Origin: a virus
Taxonomy: Duplodnaviria; Heunggongvirae; Uroviricota; Caudoviricetes
Virus record (IMG/VR): IMGVR_UViG_3300037280_000066
Coordinates: 54,061-118,060 of that record
DNA length: 64,000 nucleotides
Reading direction: 5' to 3' (one strand)
The position numbers and the translations under genes were made by a program. Under the pieces are notes generated by a model. The model saw only the letters and a program-made list of their open reading frames with translations, was not told where the DNA came from and did not search any database. This document shows, piece after piece, positions 43,225-63,916 of the stretch (its first letter is position 1; each line of letters opens with the position of its first letter).

Positions 43225-46200
43225 CTATCTATATATTCCACCCTTGTTAAGCAGTTTTTTAATTTCTCCTGCAATATTACCAGTTTCTTTCTTTAAGCTA
43301 TTCACAGTAGATGCATCTGCGTTTCCATCTATATTTATCTCTACATTTATATCTCCATAATTTCCTGTTGCAGGTGTGTTTGCAGATTTCACACTAAAAT
43401 TAGGAACAAACTTAGTAGCTAAATTCGTAATAAAATTTGTCATTTGATTAGAACTTAACGCATATTTTGATTGATTAAATGTATTAGTTGCATTACTAAT
43501 ATCGTTAATGTTATGATTAGAATTCATCGCATTGCTAACATCACTGGTATTATGATTATGATTAGAATTAGTTGCATTCCTAATATCACTAATATTACTA
43601 GTATTATCATTTAAATTAGTAGCATCACTAATATTGCTAGTGTTATCATTATTCATATTATTAATAGAATTTCCTCCAATATTACTATTGGAACTATTAT
43701 TGATTTTATGATTATTTTTAACATTAGTATTAGCATCACTAATATTATGATTGTTAATATTTGTATTAGTATCATTAACACTATGATTACTATTACCATT
43801 ATGATTATTAACATTACTATTAACATCATTAATACTATGATTATTAATATTTGTTTTATTAACATTCTTATCATTAACAACATTGTTAATATCATTTTTG
43901 TTATTACTAACATCATGATTATTATTAATATTATTTTGATTAGTATTGTTAACATTATGATTCACATCATTAACCTTTTGATTAGTATGATTTATATGAT
44001 TTACATCATTTTTATTACTAACATTATGGTCAACATTATTACTAATATCAGTATCAATATTATGATTATGCATGATATCATTTTTTGATTGAGTGTTATT
44101 ATTAGTCAAATCATTTTTTGTATTACTATGATTTGATATATACCCATTCGTGATATCATTTTTGTTATGATTATTAACTAAGTCATTTTTTACAGAACTA
44201 TTATTATGATTATCAACAAATTCATTTGTGGCATTGTTATGTTTAGTATTATAATCATTTTTATTGTTGTTAGTATTATTATGAGTAGTATAATCATTAT
44301 TATGAGTATTGCTATTATGGTTAGTCGCATAATCGTTATTATTAGTATTGTTATTATGATTAGTTGTATAATCATTTTTAACATTAGAAACTTGAGATTT
44401 ATCAGGAATGTTTTCTTTATGGTCTGATGCTAAATTTTTAACAAGTTTAGTCATTTGACCAGAATTCAACACATATTCAGGTTCTTGCTCAGTTCCATGT
44501 AGATTATATAAACCAGTTTTTGTAACAGCCCCATTCTCAATACCTTTAGCATAACTACCTAATGATTGTGGAGTATATTGAGCTTCTTGGTCTTCATGAA
44601 GTTTTTGAGCGTAAGTATCTGCTTCTTGATATGTCTTAAATTTACCCAAATACTTTCCTGTTTTATAATAAGTGTCTCTGGCTTCTTTATCAGTCATTAT
44701 TCTGCCATCATCTGATACAGTAGGAACTAATATTTCCATTCCACTATCTTCATCCTCAAAGCTCATAGAACGCACTGTACTGAAAGAACCATCTGAATTC
44801 TTAACAACTGGTCTACTATTTAAATCTATGTTACCTGCTCCATAGTAAGGCTGTTTAGGTGCAGGGGTTGGTGCAACTGATGGTGTTACTGTTTTTACAG
44901 TTGATGATGCTGTAGTTGTTTCCTTCACACCTGTTGTAGATGTTCTCATATAACCTTGATAATCACCAGAAGTGATATCAGGATACTTAGCTCTTAAATC
45001 TTCTGCTTCTTGGTGATATGATTTTTGCATATCTTGAATCTGTTTTTTCCAAGTTGCATCAGAATCATAATATCCTGCATCTAAGTTTTTCTGTAAATCC
45101 ATATATTGTTTCTGCAAAGTACCTACACGTTGTTTAGCATTTTCAGAATCTGAATATATAGGAACATCCTTTTGATTAGAAATCGTATTATTAACAGCCT
45201 GATTTGCACCATTAATAGCAGTTTGTGCAGGTGAAGGAGGTGCTGTTACAGCAGGAGTACCTTGAGCATTAGGAATTAAACTCCCACCACTAAGAGTGTT
45301 AATATCTATTAATGCTTTCTTAGCATTTTCAAGTTTTGCTAAGAAATCCCTATCTATCTTATCTCCTAATAACTTTAAACCATCTCCAAATGTTCTTGAA
45401 AATGTTGTATATAAAGTTTGAACTGATGTTATTTTAGTTCCAGATTCTTCTAATTTTCCAGTGAAGTTAGTTAGATTATCTCTAACTGGTTTCATAGCTT
45501 TATCAAATTCCTCTGTAGTCTTAGCTAACATAGCATTACGAGCAATAGCGGCTACATTTTCGTCAAATAACTGTTCATCAATTGTAGTCTTTTTAAGGTC
45601 AGTTTCCTTCTGTAATCCTGCTTTTTGGTCATTATAATTGTTTGTGATAAGTTCTCTATTACGTTTAGTCTTCAAATCGTCAATTTTTAAATCTTGGTCT
45701 TTCATTTGCTTTTCGAGTTCTTTACGTTTTTGATAACCTTCAAAACTACTATCTGCCATAATAGCATTAAGTTTTTGTTGAATGACTTGCTTTTCATCAG
45801 TTTGAACTTTTAAGTCTTTACCATAATCTTCTGTTGCATTCTCTCTATCAAAAGCTTTTAACTTTTCATCAACATAATCATTATAGTCTTTCAACTTTTT
45901 ATCAAGAATTTCTTTCTCTTTTGTAGCACCCTTTTTGATAATATCCTGTATTGCAGTCTCAGTATCTGTAATGTCTTGCAGTTTAGTATCATTAAGTTCT
46001 TTCATTTGAGCTTTTAATTCTTCTGATGTTCCTGCCACACTATCTTTTAGAGCATCTTGCTTATCTCTATATTCTTGTGTGCTAGTAATAGTTTTATCAG
46101 TCACAGCATTAACTTTGTTAAGTTCAGCAGTCTGTTTTGCAAGAAATGCAGTAGTTAACACAATCATATCTTGACGATTTTTTTCCTTACCTGCAAAATC

Positions 46201-49200
46201 ATTATCATCAAGTGCCTTACCTTGTAACTCTATGTTTTTCTTTTGTCTGTCGTATTTTGTCTTTTCAGCATCAGACATATAGAATAGTTCTTCAACTTGG
46301 ATTTGAACTTTAAGTTTTTGATTTAAACCAAAATCCTTTTGCTCTCCTGCTCTTGATGTTCTTAATTTTTCAGCTTGTTGGTGAAGTCTATCTTTCTCTT
46401 CAACGCTTGTAGCCTTATTCCATGCTACTCCAAGTTCATCAATTTGTCTTGTATAATCAAGAATAAGAGATTGTTGATTTTCTAATTCCATAGTAATAAT
46501 ATTGATTCTTTCTCCAAAATCAGTATCAGCTATACCTTCGTAAGCAGACTTAAGTTTTTCTAAAGAATGAATAGTATTAGCAATACCTGCTTCTTGCACC
46601 TTGAATAATTCATCAACTTCTGCTTTTTCAATATCTTTTTGTTTAGAAATTATATCCCCTTCAAGATTATCTTTTGCAATCAAATCTTTATGGAATGCAG
46701 TTCTTAACTGAATATACTTTGAAGCAAAACTTTTGAAATTATCAAGTTCAGCAATTTGAGAATCCCTTGCATCACCTGATTTCATATCATTGATTGTAGC
46801 TACTTTTTCATCAACAATTTTGTCATACTGATTACTATCATATATGCCTTTATCATCAAACTTCAATCCATATGTACTCTCAAGTTTAACTCTTTCTTTT
46901 CTTGCTAGTTCTCCTTCTTCCCAAGCTAGATTATTAACAGCTTGTTTCTTTTGCTTTAATAATTCTATTTCTTCTTGTAAGAGTTTAATACGTTGTGTGA
47001 AACTAACAACTTTCTTTTGTTCTGCAAGGTTTTTATCTATTGCATCTGTAACTTCATCAATAGCCTGTTTATAAGCGAATAAATCATCCTTTTCGTTCTT
47101 GTATTTTTCAGGATTCTTATCAGCAGGTTGAGCCTTTGTTTTAGGCTCAAAATCATCTCCTTGATATGGTCTAATATTATCAGTAAACTTACCAAGAGCA
47201 TTGATTTTATTAACTTCGTCATTGTATGTTTTTACATCATCAACAAGACCTTTTAACTCAGTTTTAGCTTTTTCATTTGCACCTTTGGCATTCTCAATAG
47301 CCCCTGTAAATCTGCTTTTGATAACATCATCAAACTTAGTTGCAACATCACTTAAACCAGGAACTTTTTTCAAAACATCAGCTAACCAACCAAAATTAGC
47401 TTCATAAGATGCGAACAATCCTTCATTACTTTGGATTATCCCTTCATTCTTTTTGATAACAGTTTCTAACTCAGTTCTGTGTCCTGCTAAGTTTGCAAGA
47501 GCAATTGCTTTAGCATCTAAAGCCTGTTTCTTTTTAGCATCAAATTCTTCTTGAGATTTTTGTTTTAAAATATCAACAATATTCCCTTGGAATTTAAATG
47601 CTCCTGATGCTTCATCAACACCAGTAATAAGTTCAGGATATTTCTCAGCAATTTTTACAGTAGTATCATAATATTCCTTAGATTGATTATCTAACTTGCT
47701 TAACTTCATGGCTGATTCAGTTATTGACTTATTTGAATCTGCTATTGTAACAAGTTCTTGATTATACTCTTCCATCATTTTTATAGCATTTTCAACATTT
47801 GCATGAAAATCTATTTTAACGTCTGTAGGTAATTTAGCAAGATTATCAACACCTAATTTAAACTCTGATAATGCATCTTTATTTTTGATTGCTGATTCTC
47901 CAATTTTATAAAGACTATCTCTAAAAGAGTTAGCACTAGCTTCTAATTTACCTGAATTTAAAGCATTTGGCATAGAAGTGAAAGTTTTTAATGCTGTTTC
48001 ATATTCTTTCTTTTTATTATCTATATCTGCTTGTTTAATTTGAGGTAAAATATTATCTAGTATTGATTTTAAATTGGCTGTACCATTAGACCCTGCAAAT
48101 TCTTCTGGACTATGTTTACCAATATCTTCTAAAATAACCTTAATAAAATCTTTAGATTGCGTACTCAAAGTCCCTGCTGTTGTCTCATATCCTTTAACTA
48201 TTTCATTAGCATTGATTTGAACAAGATTCATTACTTTAGCAATATTAGCATTCAAATTTGTTTCTGCTTCTGATGTTGCTTTTGTAACTTCTGAATTTAA
48301 CTTATCTATTTCAGCTTGGTAACTTTGTCCTGCTTTTGATATTTTATATTCCTCTGAACTATCATCAAAATATCCTTGCATTTCTTTAGCATGTTGTGTT
48401 TTTGCAGTAATAGCTCCAGAATCTGAAAATTCATTATACCATATACCATCATACTTTGGAGCATCCATAATCTTTTTATTACTAGCAATATCATCACCTA
48501 AAGATTCTAACTCTTTTCCAGATGCTTGTAATAGTATTTTTTGTTTCATGTCATATTCTTTTTGAAGTTTAGTAATTCTCTTATCTATTTCACTAGAAAC
48601 ATCCTTATAAGCATTAACTTCATCAGACATACCATTCTTCAAATCAGGGAATTGTTCAATTAATTGTTTTTGAACATCTACTAACTTATTCTTTTCATCA
48701 ACATTTAATCCAACAGAACTTTGTTTATCATTTAACTCTTTATAACTATCAGCCAATTTTTGCAGTTCATCTGCTGATTTTTTCAATGTAACCATGTCAT
48801 TTTGAGTGTCTGTAATAAACTTTTGTTGTTCTTCTCTAGCATGTACCCAATGACTAATAAGGTCAGTTACAGCACCAATTATAAATGTGATAGCAACAGC
48901 CAATCCCATTGTTAGAGCCATTTCTAAAGCAACAGCACCTGCGGCGGCGGCAAGTTCAGATATTCCTAATAAATCAAAGAATCCTATCAAACCCCAACCT
49001 CTAGCTCTTGTCATAGTAAAAGCAACACCCATTTTTTCAATACCTGCTATAATAGCAGTACCAAAACTTTTACCCATACTTAATAAGCTAATTTCTTTAT
49101 TAAATAATCTCATGACAACAACAACTGCCATAATTGCTACTGGCATAATACCAACCTTGTTAATTATGAAATCAAGAACTTTAACAACAGTTGTTAAAAC

Positions 49201-51486
49201 AGATACTAAACCTTTAATACCATCAGAAGAAATAGTTGCACTAAAAACACTTTCCATAGTTGCTTTTAAAACACCCATTTTTGCAGTAATACTATCCATT
49301 CTTTTTGCATTTTCAGTTACTGCTGAACCTTGTGAGTTTAAAGCAGTTTCTGTTGCAGATGTAGCAATATCCATATTCTCCATTAAGTTAATGAATTTAC
49401 TGTAATGGTATGTTCCTGCAACAACTTGAGCTACATTATTTTGAGTTACATTACCCCATGATGCCCAATTTGTTTTTACATCTTTAAGAATATCATCAAA
49501 TGAACGAAATTGCCCAACACTATCTCTAACAGCAACTCCAAGAGATTTTAAAGTCTTCTCAGATTTACCTGCATCCTCTTCACCTTCTGGGCCTATTCTA
49601 AACATTCTTGCCATCATACTTTTGATTGCAGTTCCTGCTTCATCCCCTGAAATACCTTGTGAAGATACAATAGCTGTAGTATAACCTTCTAATTGTTGAA
49701 CACTTACACCTGCTTGTCTAGCAGCAGCACCCACCTTACCAATAGATTGTGAAAGGTCTTCTGCACTAGTTCTATAGTTATTTTGGATTTCATTCCATTG
49801 GTCTAATAAACCTTTAGCATCATTTACACCCAATTTAAATGTTATCATTGCAGTATTTAATGCTTTAGATGCTGATTCTGCTGTTAATGATGTAACATTA
49901 GATGCCATTGCAGATACTCTACCAAGTTCCATAATATCTTCTGGATTTTTATGTACTCTGGCAATTTCTGCATAAGAACGCATAATATCTGCTGATGATT
50001 TACCTAAATCTTGTGCTGTTTGTACAGCATTTTGACGTAAATTTTCCATCTGTCCACTTGTAAAATCTGTTACTTTTCCAAGTTCTACCATAGCATCATT
50101 CATATCTACAACATATCTAATACCATCTTTTAAAGTGTTAAGTGCTTGCATCCATCCAGTTGCGGCTATCATCCAGATAGGGAATGCACTCGCGGCATTT
50201 TTTAATTGTCCCATGAATCCAAGGTCTTTATTAGATGCATTACTCTCAACAGTTTCAAATCTTCTTACTGATTGAGTAGCTTCATCAACTTGTACTCTGA
50301 ATTCTTTAACCTTAGTACCATCAAACATCTTAACAGTTGCTTGATTCATTGCACCAGACATTCCACCTAATGTCTTATTAATCATTCCCAATTCTTTTAC
50401 ATCATAATTTTGTCCTGCAAAATTTTGAGCCATGTATTGAGAAATACTTGATTTCATACTATTAGAAGAAATACCTTGATAATTAAGGCTTTCTGTTCCT
50501 GTGCTATTCATCAAGTTTCTTCTATTGATTAAAGCATCTTCTTTTTGCTGTTCAGCATATCCAAGTTTAGCTTGTGCATCTAATGAAGCAATAGCCATAT
50601 TTAATCTATTGATTTCTTTAGTTGTATCACTAGTATGAACATTAAGTTTACTCATATCTTCATCTATTTTATTTACTGCTAATTGGTCTATATGAATACT
50701 ATACTTACTATCAGCCATTATTTTTAACTTATTAGACATTTTATCAAGAGCTAATTCAAGGGCTACAACTGCCTGTTGTTCTTTTTTAAAATCTTGAGTA
50801 ACATCAGTTTTAGAAGTTGAAAATACACGCTTAATAAGTTCCCCTGCTTCGTTTAACTCTTCTTTCCATGTCATTGTTTCTTTTACTGCTTGACCTAAAT
50901 CATTTGTATAAGAAACAATTACTTTATTAAATCCCCAATCTTTATTCATTTCAGATTGGATTTTAGTTATTTTATTTTCAGCAATTTCTAATGTTTCAAG
51001 AACAGATTTTTGTATACTGGCTTGATTTGCGTTCAAAACATTAGCAGGTTTCCATTCGTCAACATGTGTTTGTGTAGTTGGCTGAGTAAAAGTTTTTGAT
51101 GCAGTTTGAGATGCTTTTGCCATAGCTTCTTGTACTGTATCTTGTACTTTTTTTGTTTGTACACTTATATCTTTTGCATCAATACTTAATTTAAGAACTA
51201 ATGCTTGAGATATTTTTTCACTCAATGCTTTTATCTGGTCATTAATATATGTAACTTTATCATCTATTTTTACTTTTAATACTAAGTCTTTTAAACCTTT
51301 TCCTGTACCTGTAACATTATCTAATTGTTCATTAAAACTTTTTTTAGTTATATCAAGCTGTACATCAAGTTTAATAGCCTTAGTGATTTTAGCTTGTATT
51401 TCTCCAACTTGTCTATCTAGGTCTGCTTTACTTGTTTGTAATTGAACCTTTAGCCCTAAACCATAGTCTTTTGCCATATAATTCAC
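43225..51486 (-). CDS. tape measure protein (TP901-type core) with C-terminal cargo domain and Asn-rich insertion
   Basis: 2753 aa, [10 protein letters not shown]...YAEIAR...WNEIQNNY...GTAIKS TP901 core, TM-like hydrophobic stretch, long coiled coil. Lies upstream of Dit. Confidence 0.92.
43470..44390 (-). repeat. Asn/His-rich low-complexity coding repeat inside the TMP
   Basis: About 300 aa of degenerate NNHN/NDxxN/SNISD units, ATT/ATC-rich on the + strand. Confidence 0.9.
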
Positions 51487-59874: not shown

Positions 59875-60516
59875 CTATACGTTATTTAATGTGCGATACA
59901 TGAAGTCTTGGCTCTTAGTAATTTTAATATCTCCCTGTCTTAATTCTGGTGATATTACTATTAAAGCCAATCCTCCCATCGTCATATTTTGACTTATTAA
60001 ATCTCCTGCACAAAAATCTGTGTCTATGAAGTGTACATGAGGACAGATATTCCAATCAAAATCACATATTGCTTTTCTTGAAGGAGTATACCAAGAATCA
60101 TGTATAAGTATAATCATATCTTTTTTAGGTTTTAATTTTGATATACTTTGAATGTCTGTGTAAACACCATTATACTCATGGTCTGCATCTATAATAACAA
60201 GACCAATTTCTTCACTACCATTGTTAATATTTTCTACAAGGATAGGTACAGTAAGTGCTGAATTACCTAATATAAATTCCACATTAGTGAATTGTTCAAT
60301 ATTAACAATGCAAGAATGAGTTACATCACAAGAGTAAACTTTTTTGAAGTGTTGAGATAAAGACCTCAATGAACCTCCACAAAAAGAACCTATTTCAATT
60401 GCACTGTTTTTTTTATCAATCTTACTTAAGACTTGTTGTAAAATTGTTCTTTCAGCAGGTGACATTTGCCACAATACTGAACCATCATATATCTTTTCTA
60501 CATCTTTAATATTCAT
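59875..60516 (-). CDS. class I SAM-dependent methyltransferase (Methyltransf_24-like)
   Basis: IEIGSFCGGS, GNS, IIDADHEY..V..DI, LIHDS. Confidence 0.85.
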   Translation of the reverse strand: MNIKDVEKIYDGSVLWQMSPAERTILQQVLSKIDKKNSAIEIGSFCGGSLRSLSQHFKKVYSCDVTHSCIVNIEQFTNVEFILGNSALTVPILVENINNGSEEIGLVIIDADHEYNGVYTDIQSISKLKPKKDMIILIHDSWYTPSRKAICDFDWNICPHVHFIDTDFCAGDLISQNMTMGGLALIVISPELRQGDIKITKSQDFMYRTLNNV

Positions 60517-61922
60517 TATTCTTTCTCCTTTCTACCAAGCCAAGACCCTGCAAAATGATGTATTGTGTAGGTGCTAGGTGTAGGAGTTGCTACAAGTTTT
60601 GAATGGTCATAAGGACAAAATACTTCTGTTGGATAGATTACCACAGATTCTCTTAAGAATGTAAATCCATCACCTTGACCAACAATCCAAGGAAATGATA
60701 ACCTTGTTATTGTATGAGTATTAGGTATTGGATTAGCTTCTAGTTTTGCTGTGTCATAATAAGCTAACAACATCTTAATCCATGGGTGACCAATCTCTGC
60801 TCCCATAGTAGCAGTAATCAAGAATTTATCTGCTTCATGCCCTGTAAACGCTCTATGATTTAGGAATTCATCTAAGTTTTTAACAACTTCAACATCTGAA
60901 TCCATATAAATACCACCATAGGTATACAAAGCCCATAAACGCACAAAGTCTGTTACGAATGCCCATTTCTTTTTATCATAAGCTTCCTTAACATATGCAC
61001 AACAATTGATATCAAAATTAGTTTCATTCCATTCTATTATTTCGTAGTCTGGTAAATACTTAGTCCAACTGTCAAGGCATTTTTGAATCTTAGCAGGTTT
61101 CTCTGCTCCACCAAACCAACAGTAGTGAATAGTTTTAGGTATATGTTGCATCATTAATGATTTCTTTAAATCATAAATTGTTTGCCATCTATTCCATATT
61201 TCATAGAATGGAACTTGTTTAGTATTCCAAGGTTTAGCACCTGCGTAGTGCATAATCTTAATATTCTCAACTTTGATTTCTAAAGATGTTGATAATGATG
61301 TGTTGTATTTATAGTGCATTTTCTTAATTTTTTCATTACATGTTATGTTAAAAATGTCTTGGTCATGGCAGTCATAGAATTTTGTGTTTGCCATGTTAAT
61401 CCATGTGTCACATAAGTTTAACTTTCTGATTGCATCTAAGTTAATTAAGGTTACCCCTGCATTAATATAGTAAGCATCTTCTGGTATACCTAAATTAGTT
61501 TTGTAACCTTGTGGTAATCCAGTATCTTCTACTCCTGCAAGTAAGTATCCTTCCATCTCTGTATTATAGAAGTGAGATATATCACTAGCAACTATAGCAT
61601 CTGCATCAATATATAAAACCCTATCATCATTAATGATGTTTGGTAGAAATAAACGATATAGAGTGTATTTACTAAATCTAGTATCTACGTTAATGCCACT
61701 AGGCATATATTCTTCATACATTTTTAAAAGATTGATATACTCATAAGTATAATCTTCTCCACACATTGCACAGACAGTATCAAATTCATCTAAATGACTT
61801 TGTTCTAGGTTGTCTGATAACAAATAAACTTTCGTTGGCACTTTATTTTTAACAAATAAAGCATACATTTCTACTGCTACATAAGTTGACCAATTGGCAC
61901 TAAATGCTATAGCTACATTCAT
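60516..61922 (-). CDS. glycosyltransferase fusion: N-terminal GT8 + C-terminal GT32 (DxD)
   Basis: GT8: YRLFLP, LYIDAD, YINAGV, HDQD, HYAGAKPW. GT32: IPKTIHYCWFGG, WAFVTDFVRL, GGIYMDSDV, HHFAGSW. Confidence 0.9.
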   Translation of the reverse strand: MNVAIAFSANWSTYVAVEMYALFVKNKVPTKVYLLSDNLEQSHLDEFDTVCAMCGEDYTYEYINLLKMYEEYMPSGINVDTRFSKYTLYRLFLPNIINDDRVLYIDADAIVASDISHFYNTEMEGYLLAGVEDTGLPQGYKTNLGIPEDAYYINAGVTLINLDAIRKLNLCDTWINMANTKFYDCHDQDIFNITCNEKIKKMHYKYNTSLSTSLEIKVENIKIMHYAGAKPWNTKQVPFYEIWNRWQTIYDLKKSLMMQHIPKTIHYCWFGGAEKPAKIQKCLDSWTKYLPDYEIIEWNETNFDINCCAYVKEAYDKKKWAFVTDFVRLWALYTYGGIYMDSDVEVVKNLDEFLNHRAFTGHEADKFLITATMGAEIGHPWIKMLLAYYDTAKLEANPIPNTHTITRLSFPWIVGQGDGFTFLRESVVIYPTEVFCPYDHSKLVATPTPSTYTIHHFAGSWLGRKEKE

Positions 61923-61955
61923 AATATTCTACCCCTTCTAATTTTCAATTTTCGA

Positions 61956-62627
61956 CTATTTTTTTACCCATACAAAGTAATCTTCTATTACATTTGCATC
62001 ATGTATACTACTATAAAATGCTTGTGTTACAATTTCATATTCAGAGAATGGTGATACTAAGAATTCAACTTGTTCATATGTAAAACACATACATGTAGCA
62101 TGGTTAATATATCCACCAATTCTATTTTCAAATTTTGGAAAATGGATACAGGCTAGACCTGTTGATTTTAATGCTTCTTTAATTTTATTCAAAATTAAAA
62201 ACTGGTCTTCTTCATTATTATGTTGTAATACTTGTAAACAATATATGAAGTCTACAGTTTCAGACCCTTGATATTCATCTCCTATTTGGTATATTGCATT
62301 TGTAATTCCTGAATTGATTAATCTTTCTTCTGCTTTTTTTAATACAGCAGGAGTAATGTCTAAGCAAGTCATATGCTTACATTCTTTAGCTGTATATTGG
62401 GCAACTCTTCCATCACCACAACCATATTCTAAAATAGAGTCAATTTTTTTATTACCAGTTCTGAATTTGTATTCTTTAATCAAACTTTCAGCATTAACTC
62501 TTCCAGTTTCATTATATAGCTCTTCTGTTTCAGTTGGTGAAAAATAGTCTCTGCTATTGCTTTTTAAGTTATTATCCTGTAAATCCCTATAAAGATTATG
62601 TGTTACACTTGAAACATACTTTTCCAT
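61956..62627 (-). CDS. class I SAM-dependent methyltransferase
   Basis: LEYGCGDGR, CLDIT, DFIYCLQVLQH. Confidence 0.85.
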   Translation of the reverse strand: MEKYVSSVTHNLYRDLQDNNLKSNSRDYFSPTETEELYNETGRVNAESLIKEYKFRTGNKKIDSILEYGCGDGRVAQYTAKECKHMTCLDITPAVLKKAEERLINSGITNAIYQIGDEYQGSETVDFIYCLQVLQHNNEEDQFLILNKIKEALKSTGLACIHFPKFENRIGGYINHATCMCFTYEQVEFLVSPFSEYEIVTQAFYSSIHDANVIEDYFVWVKK

Positions 62628-62736
62628 TTTTTAAATCCACCTTTTTTCTAAAATTTGTATTTTGTTGTAACGCTGTATTCCCTTATATTATATGGTAGTG
62701 GTTTCCCATGAAAGTTTAGTTTCATCTGCTTCTGGC

Positions 62737-62768
62737 AAAAAAAACCCCCTTATCCTTTTTTAAGGGGG
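62737..62768 (-). terminator. intrinsic terminator (conditional, overlaps an alternative hairpin)
   Basis: On the - strand: CCCCCUUA-loop-UAAGGGGG followed by U8. Confidence 0.8.
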
Positions 62769-62804
62769 CTTGAGAAATTAATCCCAAACCCCCTTATCTG
62801 TTTG

Positions 62805-63177
62805 TATTGCAACCATATAGCCAAGAGGAATACCTTGAGATAATTGAATTACCCCTCATAACCTGCTTCTTGGATTTCATCGAGTCTTGCTATCCTAATT
62901 TCTAAATCCTGAAACTTCCTCGAAAGGAAGTGTAAAAAGAAATTTGTGTTCTGAAACCTGAATCCTGATGTTTGAACTTTGAACTTTCATATTGTGTCCC
63001 TTATGGACTTCTTTTAATCACTATTATATAGTGAACATATGTATTATCTGTTAAGATAATATTCTTGTTCTTCTAAAAAATAAGAATATCAAATTCTGAT
63101 TTTATTAAATCACCAGTTATATTTTTACCCAAAATATTAAGGGAATTCAAATTCAAGGTTTTCATATGATTGCAATA
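62805..63177 (-). ncRNA. putative structured non-coding RNA (~373 nt) directly after the 213-aa gene
   Basis: No ORF in the track. 14-bp end-to-end stem containing a G-U pair that works only on the - strand. Several internal hairpins including a UUCG tetraloop, and a 7-nt periodic array. Confidence 0.7.
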
Positions 63178-63187
63178 TCTTTATTAA

Positions 63188-63829
63188 TTATCCTTCAATT
63201 GTGATTCTTGTTATTACATTGCTTTCACTTAAAACGAAGTCTACCTCAGAGTTGAACTGTTCAATGCTATCTTTCAATGCCTTGATTTTCTCCCCTAATT
63301 TTAGAACATCTAACACTTCATGCTGATTCTGTTCTAAATATGGTTTGCTAATAGCTTCAACTTCATCTGCTGTTGCTTTTTGCTTTCCTTCTTTTCCAAG
63401 TGTTGTAAGTAATAATTCATCAAGCTTGATTTGTACTGCATCATTTGCTCTTTGAACAGCTACTAATGCTGATTGGTATTGTCTTTCCATATGTGAAAGA
63501 AGTAATATTTCATAAGAAATAGATTCTTTTCTTTCAATGGCTTCTGCTACTGTCATTTCTTTACCTGCAATTGTTACTTTTGAGTTTGCATTGCTTGCTA
63601 CTATTGCTGACTTGATTCTCTTTCTTCTTTCAGTCAAATCAACTACGCTTTGGTAACTTGCTTCTGCTTTTGCTGAATACTCAGCAGGTGTGTCAATGTT
63701 GTTAACTTTCTTTGCACTTTTCTTATATGAAACTATAAGACTTGCATCAGAGATTGCTCTTTCAATCCTACTATGTAGAAGTTTTAACTCTGCTAATGCT
63801 CTTTGAATTGACATTTCTGAATTTGCCAT
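63188..63829 (-). CDS. conserved-type hypothetical helical protein (213 aa), candidate partner of the downstream RNA
   Basis: RBS AAGGAG, own promoter. Internal repeat MSIQRALAELK / MTVAEAIERK, SYQSVVDL..RRKRIKSAIVASNA. Confidence 0.85.
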   Translation of the reverse strand: MANSEMSIQRALAELKLLHSRIERAISDASLIVSYKKSAKKVNNIDTPAEYSAKAEASYQSVVDLTERRKRIKSAIVASNANSKVTIAGKEMTVAEAIERKESISYEILLLSHMERQYQSALVAVQRANDAVQIKLDELLLTTLGKEGKQKATADEVEAISKPYLEQNQHEVLDVLKLGEKIKALKDSIEQFNSEVDFVLSESNVITRITIEG

Positions 63830-63887
63830 ATTACTCTCCTTTTATTCTTTAATTATTATTCTTGTATGTGTTCTTTCTTACTCTCTT

Positions 63888-63916
63888 ATCATACCACACT
63901 CTGAACAATTTGTCAA
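63888..63916 (-). promoter_or_regulatory. sigmaA promoter driving the 213-aa gene + RNA
   Basis: On the - strand: TTGACA (63916-63911), 17-nt spacer, TG-N-TATGAT (63893-63888). Confidence 0.85.

What the first reader, a model, noticed from the sequence alone, without database searches (positions are those of the whole stretch)
62737..63916. Self-contained promoter-protein-structured RNA-switch cassette: candidate undescribed ribonucleoprotein system
Seen in sequence: a near-consensus sigmaA promoter (63888-63916) drives a 213-aa helical protein with no recognisable catalytic motif. Ten nt after its stop begins a ~373-nt ORF-free region. Its ends pair over 14 bp (5' UAUUGCAAUCAUAU with 3' AUAUGGUUGCAAUA; the single G-U pair is only valid on the - strand, which supports that orientation). 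Inside are hairpins at 63097-63112, 63059-63089, 63043-63060, 63018-63034 and a UUCG-capped stem at 62914-62931, plus a possible GAAAACC / GGUUAUG long-range pairing. Inference: the protein and RNA are co-transcribed and form an RNP, or a protein-controlled RNA regulator. A host-type promoter inside a late region suggests early or lysogenic expression. From memory, similar proteins occur in other Firmicutes and Bacteroidetes followed by similar AAAGTTC-rich non-coding tracts, but I could not verify this.
Basis: partly seen in the sequence, partly recalled or inferred. Interest (0 to 1): 0.88.

Follow-up and report, generated by a model that had tools for sequence, protein, structure and literature searches.

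The report
Phage protein with dedicated heptad-repeat RNA
Right after a 213-residue helical phage protein gene lies a real, intricately knotted 373-base non-coding RNA carrying about a dozen evenly spaced 7-base units; this gene-plus-RNA pair recurs almost without exception from phage T5 to Bacillus-type chromosomes, is catalogued only as an 86-base fragment, and is probably an undescribed protein-RNA particle of unknown role.

Summary
Window 63188-63829 (-) encodes a 213-aa helical protein of the T5.085 family (phrog_1491, doubtfully labelled 'tail fiber'). Ten bases after its stop, a 373-nt non-coding element (63177-62805, -) begins, closed by a 14-15 bp helix.

The element is a genuine structured RNA. 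It is homologous in more than 150 loci and always lies on the gene's strand, 7-59 nt after the stop. Six helices, including two pseudoknot systems, covary: 0 of 2000 permutations reach the observed value for four helices, 2 of 2000 for P4. In the closing helix there are 84 G-U against 7 A-C cells, which fixes the transcribed strand.

Its core holds two unpaired arrays of 7-nt units (invariant U-Y-A every 7 nt; 7 plus 4-5 units).

The linkage runs both ways. 78 of 80 bacterial and at least 76 of 80 viral homologue loci carry the RNA. All 13 RNA copies found without reference to the protein have the gene directly upstream.

Rfam 15 has no match at this locus. Its 86-nt RAGATH-27 model matches, below threshold, the 5' end of one distant relative.

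My best reading is a protein-RNA particle in which the protein oligomerises on the heptad arrays. Binding is inferred, not shown, and the function is unknown.

Other agents of this scan have already noted the same family on other genomes.

The parts
63888..63916 (-). sigma-A/sigma-70-type promoter (TTGACA, 17 nt, TG-TATGAT) of the cassette
   Evidence: 11 of 12 matches. The equivalent site is a 12/12 promoter in L013 and 11/12 in L021.
63188..63829 (-). 213-aa helical protein of the T5.085 / phrog_1491 family; function unknown
   Evidence: phrog_1491, E 1.4e-61, full length; 743 phage records; AlphaFold2 mean pLDDT 90.7. Searches found no Pfam, NCBIfam or PADLOC family.
62805..63177 (-). 373-nt structured non-coding RNA (the whole element, from P1 5' arm to P1 3' arm)
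   Evidence: nhmmer homology stops exactly at these ends. Covariation.
63163..63177 (-). P1 5' arm (closing helix)
   Evidence: The twelve core pairs are 95-100% canonical, with 3-6 pair types each.
62805..62819 (-). P1 3' arm
   Evidence: As for the 5' arm. 84 G-U against 7 A-C cells.
63153..63162 (-). conserved GAAAAC segment; 5' arm of long-range helix P5
   Evidence: cognate 6.08 against non-cognate 4.23, 0 of 2000. (MI pairs 20-304 and 21-303).
62829..62836 (-). P5 3' arm. It lies inside the P3-enclosed domain, so P5 crosses P3 (pseudoknot).
63144..63150 (-). P2 5' arm (UUGAAUU)
   Evidence: 90.5% canonical; slid controls 29-42%; 0 of 2000.
62844..62850 (-). P2 3' arm (AAUUCAA), in the loop of hairpin P4 (pseudoknot)
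63116..63143 (-). H-type pseudoknot PK1. S1 pairs CCC 63141-63143 with GGG 63128-63130. S2 pairs 63131-63137 with 63119-63125.
   Evidence: The same topology occurs in nearly all of 42 sequences, with unrelated S2 sequences.
62992..63115 (-). variable region with five local hairpins; length and sequence are not conserved
   Evidence: In relative L081 this region holds a tRNA-like insert.
62937..62988 (-). heptad array A: seven contiguous 7-nt units with invariant U-Y-A(R)
   Evidence: information profile. (RNAalifold consensus unpaired, 0.0 kcal/mol). Array length varies by only 1-2 nt across 42 sequences.
62914..62931 (-). UUCG-capped hairpin inserted between the two arrays; lineage-specific
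   Evidence: Present in a minority of relatives.
62881..62913 (-). heptad array B: four to five further 7-nt units
   Evidence: Not complementary to array A (203 of 2000).
62872..62883 (-). highly conserved junction UCGAUGAAAUCC leading into P3
62868..62873 (-). P3 5' arm
   Evidence: 88.5% canonical; 0 of 2000.
62821..62826 (-). P3 3' arm, followed by the invariant GGCU
62836..62858 (-). hairpin P4 (arms 62854-62858 and 62836-62840); its loop carries the P2 3' arm
   Evidence: 2 of 2000; pairs 282-300 and 284-298.
62761..62796 (-). 15-bp hairpin directly after the RNA; it competes with the terminator for segment 62761-62771
   Evidence: (I6). Kept through compensatory changes in L013.
62735..62771 (-). 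intrinsic terminator (11-bp stem, 8-nt loop, run of 8 U)
   Evidence: The 3' arm and the U run are identical in L013.

Best explanation
Shown:
- The cassette is one copy of a widespread two-part module. Part one is a T5.085-family helical protein gene. Part two is a ~300-400-nt structured RNA encoded 7-59 nt after its stop codon on the same strand.
- The RNA is closed by helix P1.
- Its 5' strand pairs twice into the 3' domain (P5, and P2 into the loop of P4), across helix P3. This gives a compact pseudoknotted core.
- A second H-type pseudoknot (PK1) follows.
- A variable region tolerates insertions.
- Two arrays of fixed length hold 7-nt units with an invariant U-Y-A every seven bases. They are predicted to be single-stranded.

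Inferred:
- Gene and RNA are made as one transcript from the promoter at 63916-63888, ending at the terminator at 62771-62735.
- The RNA is kept as a discrete species. In relatives its ends are set by terminators, flanking tRNAs or a twister-like ribozyme.
- Several copies of the protein bind the U-Y-A triplets, one per heptad. This would work in the manner of HutP or TRAP on their periodic triplets.
- The result would be a particle of defined size on a folded RNA scaffold.

Unknown:
- What the particle does. Only these two parts travel together, through phage early regions and tRNA islands and through unrelated bacterial chromosomal sites. I therefore think a self-sufficient role in RNA-level phage-host conflict or RNA metabolism is most likely.
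For: Homology of the non-coding part:
- A single-sequence nhmmer search finds L013 at E 1.4e-38, plus eight further loci.
- Iteration reaches T5, C. botulinum phage D-1873 and others.
- 64 of 80 IMG/VR homologue loci hit, all on the + strand and all directly after the gene. A broader profile recovers 12 of the other 16.
- 78 of 80 bacterial loci hit, all on the + strand.

Reverse test:
- Of 80 loci fetched by a pattern from the RNA's 3' core, the 13 with a true RNA match are exactly the 13 that have the protein gene upstream.

Structure:
- RNAalifold finds 14 of 23 pairs with compensatory changes.
- Cognate arms pair better than non-cognate arms: 0 of 2000 permutations for P1, P5, P2 and P3, and 2 of 2000 for P4.
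- An unbiased MI-APC scan ranks exactly these helices first.
- PK1 is found in nearly all sequences.

Heptads:
- The invariant U and A recur at exact 7-nt spacing.
- The consensus fold of this region is unpaired.
- The arrays are not complementary to each other.
- Equivalent positions of neighbouring units tend to carry the same base within one RNA, AA or TT.

Neighbours:
- Flanking genes are unrelated from locus to locus.

Precedent:
- HutP reads XAG triplets with 4-nt spacers at two sites joined by a linker (PMC2425495).
Against: - No experiment or computation here shows that the protein touches the RNA.
- The protein has no recognised RNA-binding domain.
- Its only structural relative is the uncharacterised DIP1984/septicolysin fold.
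- By eye it carries about as many acidic as basic residues; this was not computed.
- The heptads could instead be read by a host factor, or form a tertiary structure that thermodynamic folding cannot see.
- Tight cis linkage would also be expected of a 3' UTR that controls the gene's own mRNA.
Confidence: 0.5

Rival explanations
1. A stand-alone non-coding RNA whose heptad arrays bind or decoy a host factor (a ribonuclease, single-strand-binding or cold-shock-type protein, or a defence nuclease). The neighbouring protein would be only a helper (chaperone, modifier, stabiliser) or merely co-expressed.
For: The U-Y-A(R) core is nearly the same from T5 (Proteobacteria) to Firmicutes phages, as expected for a conserved cellular target. 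Phage copies sit among tRNAs and other orphan RNAs such as drum and skipping-rope. The protein has no RNA-binding signature.
Against: The only gene that always accompanies the RNA is this protein, in both directions of the test. A pure decoy would not need it. Bacterial chromosomal copies are hard to read as anti-host decoys.
Confidence: 0.2
2. A cis-acting 3' UTR. The RNA would control the stability or translation of its own mRNA (an autoregulatory operator like the pseudoknot plus unstructured A/U repeats of T4 gene 32, recalled from my own knowledge). In this lineage it might also control read-through into the downstream methyl- and glycosyltransferase genes, through the competing hairpins at 62796-62742.
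For: The RNA is always on the same transcript, just after the stop. Mutually exclusive hairpin and terminator follow it here and are kept with compensatory changes in L013.
Against: A 300-400-nt double-pseudoknotted RNA closed by its own terminal helix is far more than a 3' operator needs. Downstream genes differ in every lineage, and most relatives lack the competing hairpins. Flanking tRNAs and a twister-like ribozyme suggest the RNA is released.
Confidence: 0.12
3. A toxin-antitoxin-like or abortive-infection / counter-defence pair, in which a repeat-bearing RNA neutralises or is processed by the protein. This would be functionally like type III systems such as ToxIN.
For: It is an autonomous two-part module that moves between phages and unrelated chromosomal sites. 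The RNA carries repeats. One chromosomal copy lies next to a Rok-type repressor gene.
Against: The order is reversed relative to type III systems (from my own knowledge, there the RNA comes first, with a terminator before the toxin). The repeats are 7 nt, not 34-45 nt. The protein is all-helical and matches no PADLOC model. Lysinibacillus species keep the module at one syntenic site.
Confidence: 0.1
4. A DNA-level element (replication origin with iterons, a miniature transposable element with terminal inverted repeats, or a packaging site), or a chance fold in AT-rich spacer DNA.
For: Terminal inverted repeats and short tandem repeats are also typical of origins and MITEs.
Against: The arms covary instead of being conserved. 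G-U far outnumbers A-C (84 against 7 in P1), which makes sense only for RNA of one strand. Both pseudoknot systems covary. The genome holds a single copy. Orientation relative to the gene is fixed in more than 150 loci.
Confidence: 0.02

Closest known systems
RAGATH-27 RNA motif (Rfam RF03100; 86-nt candidate motif, function unknown)
   Same: Its consensus holds the family's conserved 5' segment (CGAAAACU..AAAC..). It aligns end to end with the first 86 nt of the element in relative L100: 45.6 bits, E 3e-6 in that genome.
   Different: That score is below the family's 76.1-bit cut-off. The model does not hit this window's copy at all: the best hit in the genome is 22 bits, elsewhere. It also hits none of the 34 relatives scanned. 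It models the long-range arms as unpaired and lacks the closing helix, both pseudoknots, the heptad arrays, the 3' core and the protein link.
HutP on hut mRNA and TRAP on the trp leader (Bacillus): oligomeric proteins that read periodic RNA triplets
   Same: A conserved triplet recurs at fixed spacing in single-stranded RNA. HutP reads XAG plus a 4-nt spacer, a 7-nt period, at two sites joined by a linker (PMC2425495). Here U-Y-A plus 4 nt forms two arrays joined by a linker.
   Different: Those arrays lie in 5' leaders and overlap terminator/antiterminator stems to regulate an operon. Here the arrays sit inside a closed, pseudoknotted stand-alone RNA, downstream of the protein gene. The protein has neither the HutP nor the TRAP fold. 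Binding is not shown.
Large 'ornate' phage-associated RNAs (GOLLD RF01998, ROOL RF03087) and the protein-associated orphan motifs drum, skipping-rope and DUF3800 (PMC5737381)
   Same: These are large, conserved RNAs of unknown function in phages and prophages, often beside tRNA genes. drum and skipping-rope lie near relatives of this module. The 2017 survey notes a compelling association of drum, skipping-rope and DUF3800-I with nearby protein genes.
   Different: No sequence or structure match to any of them. The linkage here is strictly oriented, gene first on the same strand. Those motifs associate with genes on either side and either strand.
tmRNA with SmpB
   Same: In broad outline both have 5' and 3' ends paired, pseudoknots, an internal single-stranded stretch and a dedicated small protein.
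   Different: ARAGORN finds no tmRNA. There is no tRNA-like end and no reading frame, since a 7-nt period is not a coding period. The protein is not SmpB-like.
DIP1984 / 'septicolysin' fold (PDB 3kdq, uncharacterised)
   Same: It is the best structural match to the protein: Foldseek probability 1.00, E 7e-3; VIA-align Z 9.9 over 151 of 152 residues at rmsd 8.2; AlphaFold DB 'Septicolysin' cluster, E 2.4e-3.
   Different: No sequence-level match. It is shorter (about 150 aa), and helical bundles match one another easily. It says nothing about function.

Membership tests
T5.085 / phrog_1491 protein family | Full-length match to the family profile | tested here: met
   phrog_1491 at E 1.4e-61, residues 4-212 on profile positions 3-210 of 211. 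tblastn finds T5 T5.085 at 35.5% identity over 98% of the query.
T5.085 / phrog_1491 protein family | The label 'tail fiber protein' (a structural role) | tested here: inconclusive
   In T5 the gene lies in the early region, among replication and tRNA genes. Bacterial copies lie outside prophage-like contexts. Nothing supports a fibre, but virion content was not tested.
Heptad-repeat RNA linked to the T5.085 family (unnamed family defined here) | Homology over the whole element, bounded by the closing helix | tested here: met
   In the iterated profile search the window's copy is the top hit at 4.8e-71 (it seeded the profile); the independent evidence is L013 at E 1.4e-38 with the single-sequence query and relatives at 1e-57 down to 2e-5.
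Heptad-repeat RNA linked to the T5.085 family (unnamed family defined here) | Helices P1, P5, P2, P3 and P4, plus pseudoknot PK1 | tested here: met
   All are formed by the window's sequence and covary across 42-71 sequences.
Heptad-repeat RNA linked to the T5.085 family (unnamed family defined here) | Two arrays of 7-nt units with U-Y-A in register | tested here: met
   Window 62937-62988 and 62881-62913.
RAGATH-27 (Rfam RF03100) | Covariance-model score at or above the 76.1-bit gathering cut-off | tested here: not met
   No hit at the locus; the best hit in the genome is 22.1 bits, elsewhere. Relative L100 scores 45.6 bits over the element's first 86 nt.
GOLLD, ROOL and other Rfam 15 families | Any covariance-model match | tested here: not met
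   No match at gathering score in the window. Only noise at E up to 10 in 62550-63300.
tmRNA | tRNA-like domain and tag reading frame | tested here: not met
   ARAGORN finds none in the window, and its tRNA/tmRNA scan of the genome lists only tRNAs.
HutP/TRAP-type periodic-triplet recognition | A conserved triplet at fixed spacing in unpaired RNA | tested here: met
HutP/TRAP-type periodic-triplet recognition | An oligomeric protein that binds one triplet per subunit | not testable with these tools
   No protein-RNA prediction is on offer. It needs EMSA, footprinting or cryo-EM.
HutP/TRAP-type periodic-triplet recognition | The triplet array overlaps a terminator/antiterminator, so that binding controls read-through | tested here: not met
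   The arrays lie about 85 nt or more upstream of the hairpins at 62796-62742 and inside the closed RNA. Most relatives have no such hairpins.
Type III toxin-antitoxin (ToxIN-like) | A repeat RNA upstream of a ToxN/AbiQ-type endoribonuclease gene | tested here: not met
   The RNA is downstream of the gene. PADLOC has no match. The protein is all-helical.
Intrinsic terminator | A G+C-rich hairpin followed directly by a U run | tested here: met
   62771-62742 plus eight U.

The most novel reading that the evidence does not exclude
The pair would be a new class of ribonucleoprotein particle. A pseudoknotted scaffold RNA presents about a dozen U-Y-A heptads, on which a fixed number of T5.085-family subunits assemble. 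Large virulent phages (T5 included) and many Bacillota would carry it as a self-sufficient module acting in phage-host conflict or RNA surveillance, for example as a sensor, a decoy or a sequestering particle.
Probability: 0.3. Interest if true: 0.85.

Novelty: new variant of a known kind. Interest (0 to 1): 0.75.

Why it matters
If the reading is right, phage T5, one of the oldest model phages, carries an unannotated ~330-nt structured RNA with a dedicated protein partner. So do hundreds of other large phages and more than a hundred bacterial species. A class this widespread and this intricately folded (two pseudoknot systems, a defined closing helix, arrays of fixed length) usually marks a demanding biochemical job.

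The exact 7-nt register gives a concrete, testable binding model. T5 with E. coli, and Bacillus or Lysinibacillus strains, give tractable genetics.

It would also correct a propagated 'tail fiber protein' label. And it would show that the Rfam motif RAGATH-27 is a fragment of a much larger RNA.

Tried and rejected
- Homodimer prediction of the protein (complex prediction, two copies). No verdict: score 0.59, but one unrelated control reached 0.46. I use it neither for nor against binding.
- Rfam at gathering and permissive thresholds on the window and 42 related loci. Nothing covers the element except the sub-threshold RAGATH-27 hit in L100.
- Pfam, NCBIfam, PADLOC and a PDB sequence-profile search for the protein. 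Only noise.
- BFVD and AlphaFold DB fold searches. Only uncharacterised relatives.
- Protein Atlas. Only DUF leads (DUF6847, DUF7873), below a trustworthy score.
- Literature searches for T5.085, phrog_1491, the accession, RAGATH-27, heptamer-repeat RNAs and T5 stable RNAs. No description found. The 2023 survey of viral structured RNAs (PMC10690425) reports motifs of 29-151 nt and may hold fragments; I could not check its tables.
- Pairing between the two heptad arrays (203 of 2000) and between the PK1 loop and the junction (807 of 2000). Rejected. PK1 loop against array A gave a weak signal (15 of 2000) that I did not pursue.
- A coding reading. The 30- and 31-aa ORFs in the region are not conserved. 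The ATG of the one over array A is absent in relatives, and a 7-nt period is not a coding period.
- A conserved third gene. None was found; neighbours differ in every lineage.
- The count of structure pairs and build_rna_model. Not used. The first needs a typed 564-character bracket string, which I avoided. The element exceeds the practical size for model calibration. Equivalent counts, slid-partner controls and permutation tests were run in Python instead.
Full report
**Setting.** The window is bases 54061-118060 of a 182-kb viral record that is 92% complete. It has 31% G+C. A close relative has SPbeta-type tail genes (YomU, YomV, YomW) next to the same cassette. The genome has a 26-tRNA cluster about 16 kb away, outside the window. 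The cassette lies on the minus strand, upstream of a methyltransferase / glycosyltransferase block at 59875-62627.

**Checking the observation.**
- The promoter at 63916-63888 matches 11 of 12 positions and has a TG extension.
- The ORF has 213 codons.
- The RNA's closing helix begins 10 nt after the stop and ends 373 nt later.
- The inner hairpins and the UUCG hairpin appear in the minimum-energy fold. The spacer folds better than all 100 shuffles (z = -4.73).
- One proposal fails: the GAAAACC / GGUUAUG pairing has no covariation support.

**The protein.**
- It matches phrog_1491 over its full length (E 1.4e-61).
- tblastn finds it in 743 phage records, including T5 (T5.085), C. botulinum phage D-1873, and Bacillus, Lactococcus, Vibrio, Pseudomonas, Klebsiella and Erwinia phages.
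- There is no Pfam, NCBIfam or PADLOC match.
- The AlphaFold2 model is confident (pLDDT 90.7). It shows long helices with a small sheet made from the N-terminus, a central hairpin and the C-terminus.
- Invariant residues (R10, K16, R21, K73, S79, N80, E99, R100, K101, N168, D197, N204, T207) lie in or next to the strands that form that sheet.
- The only structural relative is the uncharacterised DIP1984 / 'septicolysin' fold.
- The 'tail fiber' label is doubtful. The T5 gene sits among early genes.

**The non-coding region is a conserved RNA.**
- Every homologue locus I fetched has a gap of 400-1200 nt with no long ORF after the gene; a few short ORFs are called inside it.
- With the window's spacer as the only query, nhmmer finds the spacer of L013 at E 1.4e-38, and eight more. 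L013's protein is 74% identical.
- Two iterations reach T5 and the most distant loci.
- Homology ends exactly at the two arms of the closing helix.
- In 80 further IMG/VR loci, 64 hit, all on the gene's strand and all just after the stop. A broader profile recovers 12 of the other 16.
- In 80 bacterial loci, 78 hit, all on the same strand. These were drawn from 127 stretches encoding a relative in a collection holding one genome per species.
- The reverse test used a 17-base pattern from the RNA's 3' core. It returned 80 loci, of which 13 carry a true RNA match. Those same 13, and no others, carry the protein gene directly upstream.
- The two parts are therefore linked in both directions, while flanking genes are unrelated.

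**Structure.** I aligned 42 distinct full-length copies with MAFFT, which knows nothing of structure.
- RNAalifold finds the closing helix P1 and helix P3, with compensatory changes in 14 of 23 pairs.
- By inspection, then by test, the RNA has six supported helices:
  - P1.
  - P5, in which the conserved GAAAAC segment pairs with the strand just before the P3 3' arm.
  - P2, in which seven bases pair into the loop of hairpin P4.
  - P3.
  - P4.
  - An H-type pseudoknot, PK1.
- P5 and P2 both cross P3, so the core is doubly knotted.
- Per-pair counts are 88-91% canonical for P1, P2 and P3, against 29-53% when the partner is slid by 1-3 columns.
- An alignment-independent test compares each sequence's own arms with arms taken from other sequences. 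It gives 0 of 2000 permutations for P1, P5, P2 and P3, and 2 of 2000 for P4.
- An unbiased mutual-information scan of 71 sequences ranks pairs of exactly these helices at the top. It adds one pair that probably extends P3.
- PK1 is found in nearly all sequences, with unrelated stem sequences.
- G-U cells outnumber A-C cells 84 to 7 in P1. The functional molecule is therefore RNA of the gene's strand, not DNA.

**The heptads.** Between the variable region and the 3' core lie two arrays of 7-nt units.
- The information profile shows an invariant U, and an invariant A two bases later, at exact 7-nt spacing. There are seven units in array A and four or five in array B. The three or four bases between are free.
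- Array length varies by only 1-2 nt across all lineages. Insertions occur only between the arrays.
- RNAalifold leaves the region unpaired, with a consensus energy of 0.0.
- The arrays show no sequence-specific complementarity to each other.
- Equivalent positions of adjacent units tend to hold the same base within one RNA.
- This is the signature of repeated recognition of a short motif by identical subunits. HutP does this with XAG plus four spacer bases at two sites joined by a linker (PMC2425495). TRAP does the same with its triplets (from my own knowledge).

**Ends and expression.**
- Only 7-59 nt separate the stop from P1, so a separate promoter is unlikely. Co-transcription is inferred.
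- This copy and its nearest relatives have their own strong promoter and a terminator after the RNA.
- Elsewhere the RNA is embedded in tRNA arrays. In L023 it is followed at once by a twister-P1-like sequence (41 bits, below the cut-off).
- All of this fits a discrete, released RNA, though release is inference.
- Here and in L013, a 15-bp hairpin right after the RNA competes with the terminator stem for one strand, and it is kept by compensatory changes. It may tune read-through into the transferase genes. It is lineage-specific, not a family trait.

**What is known.**
- Rfam 15 has nothing at this locus.
- Following a note from an earlier agent of this scan, I tested RAGATH-27 (RF03100). It aligns over its whole 86-nt length to the 5' end of the element in distant relative L100 at 45.6 bits, below its 76.1-bit cut-off. 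Its consensus contains the family's GAAAAC..AAAC segment.
- The catalogue therefore holds a fragment of one sub-lineage, modelled mostly as unpaired.
- I found no paper on the RNA, on the pair or on T5.085. The library does not cover subscription journals.
- Other agents of this scan have reported the same family on other genomes. I reproduced their main claims independently on this window's data.

**Verdict.**
- I am about 95% confident that this is a real, conserved, pseudoknotted RNA gene obligately paired with the T5.085-family protein.
- The reading that the two form a particle, with the protein oligomerised on the heptads, is the best available but is unproven (about 50%).
- The biological role is unknown.

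Noticed in passing
window 62735-62796 (-): A 15-bp hairpin and an intrinsic terminator share one strand (62761-62771), so they exclude each other. Relative L013 keeps both through compensatory changes. This may be an attenuator for the downstream methyl- and glycosyltransferase genes. It is specific to this lineage.
   Followed up: partly
window 59875-62627 (-): Downstream of the cassette lie four genes in a row: a SAM methyltransferase, a fused GT8 plus DXD-motif glycosyltransferase (468 aa), a second methyltransferase (CmcI-like), and a further ORF. L013 has a related glycosyltransferase block. This is probably a phage-encoded glycan-modification module.
   Followed up: no
G000 contig 133789-139160 (outside the window): A cluster of 26 tRNA genes lies on the minus strand of the same phage genome. 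Three odd tRNA-like calls lie at 202-921. Here the cassette is not inside the tRNA cluster, unlike in many relatives.
   Followed up: no
L023:2490-2551: A twister-P1 ribozyme-like match (41.3 bits against a cut-off of 67.2; E 1e-5) starts at the last bases of the RNA element. It may cut the RNA's 3' end free. This also fits the name of the Rfam fragment, RAGATH, which stands for RNAs associated with twister and hammerhead genes.
   Followed up: no
L081:2200-2310: In this relative, the variable region of the RNA holds a tRNA-like insert (a GGTTCAATTCC T-arm; weak YrlA / Y-RNA-like match, E 0.015). The variable region therefore tolerates whole extra domains.
   Followed up: no
L012:5401-5508; L040:1142-1229; L067:1145-1329: Other orphan phage RNAs sit near the module. 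A drum RNA lies about 770 nt downstream in C. botulinum phage D-1873. Skipping-rope RNAs lie upstream of the gene in two IMG/VR contigs.
   Followed up: no
L232 and L233 (Lysinibacillus chromosomes): In Lysinibacillus, both sampled assemblies carry the module at one chromosomal site, between an MFS transporter gene and a TRAM/m5U methyltransferase gene, and many other Lysinibacillus species carry it too (their sites not checked). No phage genes were seen nearby. This suggests vertical inheritance and a cellular role.
   Followed up: partly
L105:2478-3088: In this IMG/VR contig the protein gene matches in two different frames, so it is apparently frameshifted. The RNA downstream is still intact.
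   Followed up: no
BFVD hits to model m861b73bb83e8: Proteins of about 560 aa from giant viruses (ChoanoV1, Yasminevirus) contain a domain that matches the fold (E 1.6e-3 and 8.4e-3; TM by query 0.61-0.65). Two protein-homologue loci lie on contigs labelled as giant-virus MAGs (L066, L080), and a third such contig (L143) carries both the gene and the RNA.
   Followed up: no
window 43225-51486 (-): A single 2753-codon ORF lies here, flanked by several ORFs of more than 1000 codons on the same strand. I did not examine them.
   Followed up: no
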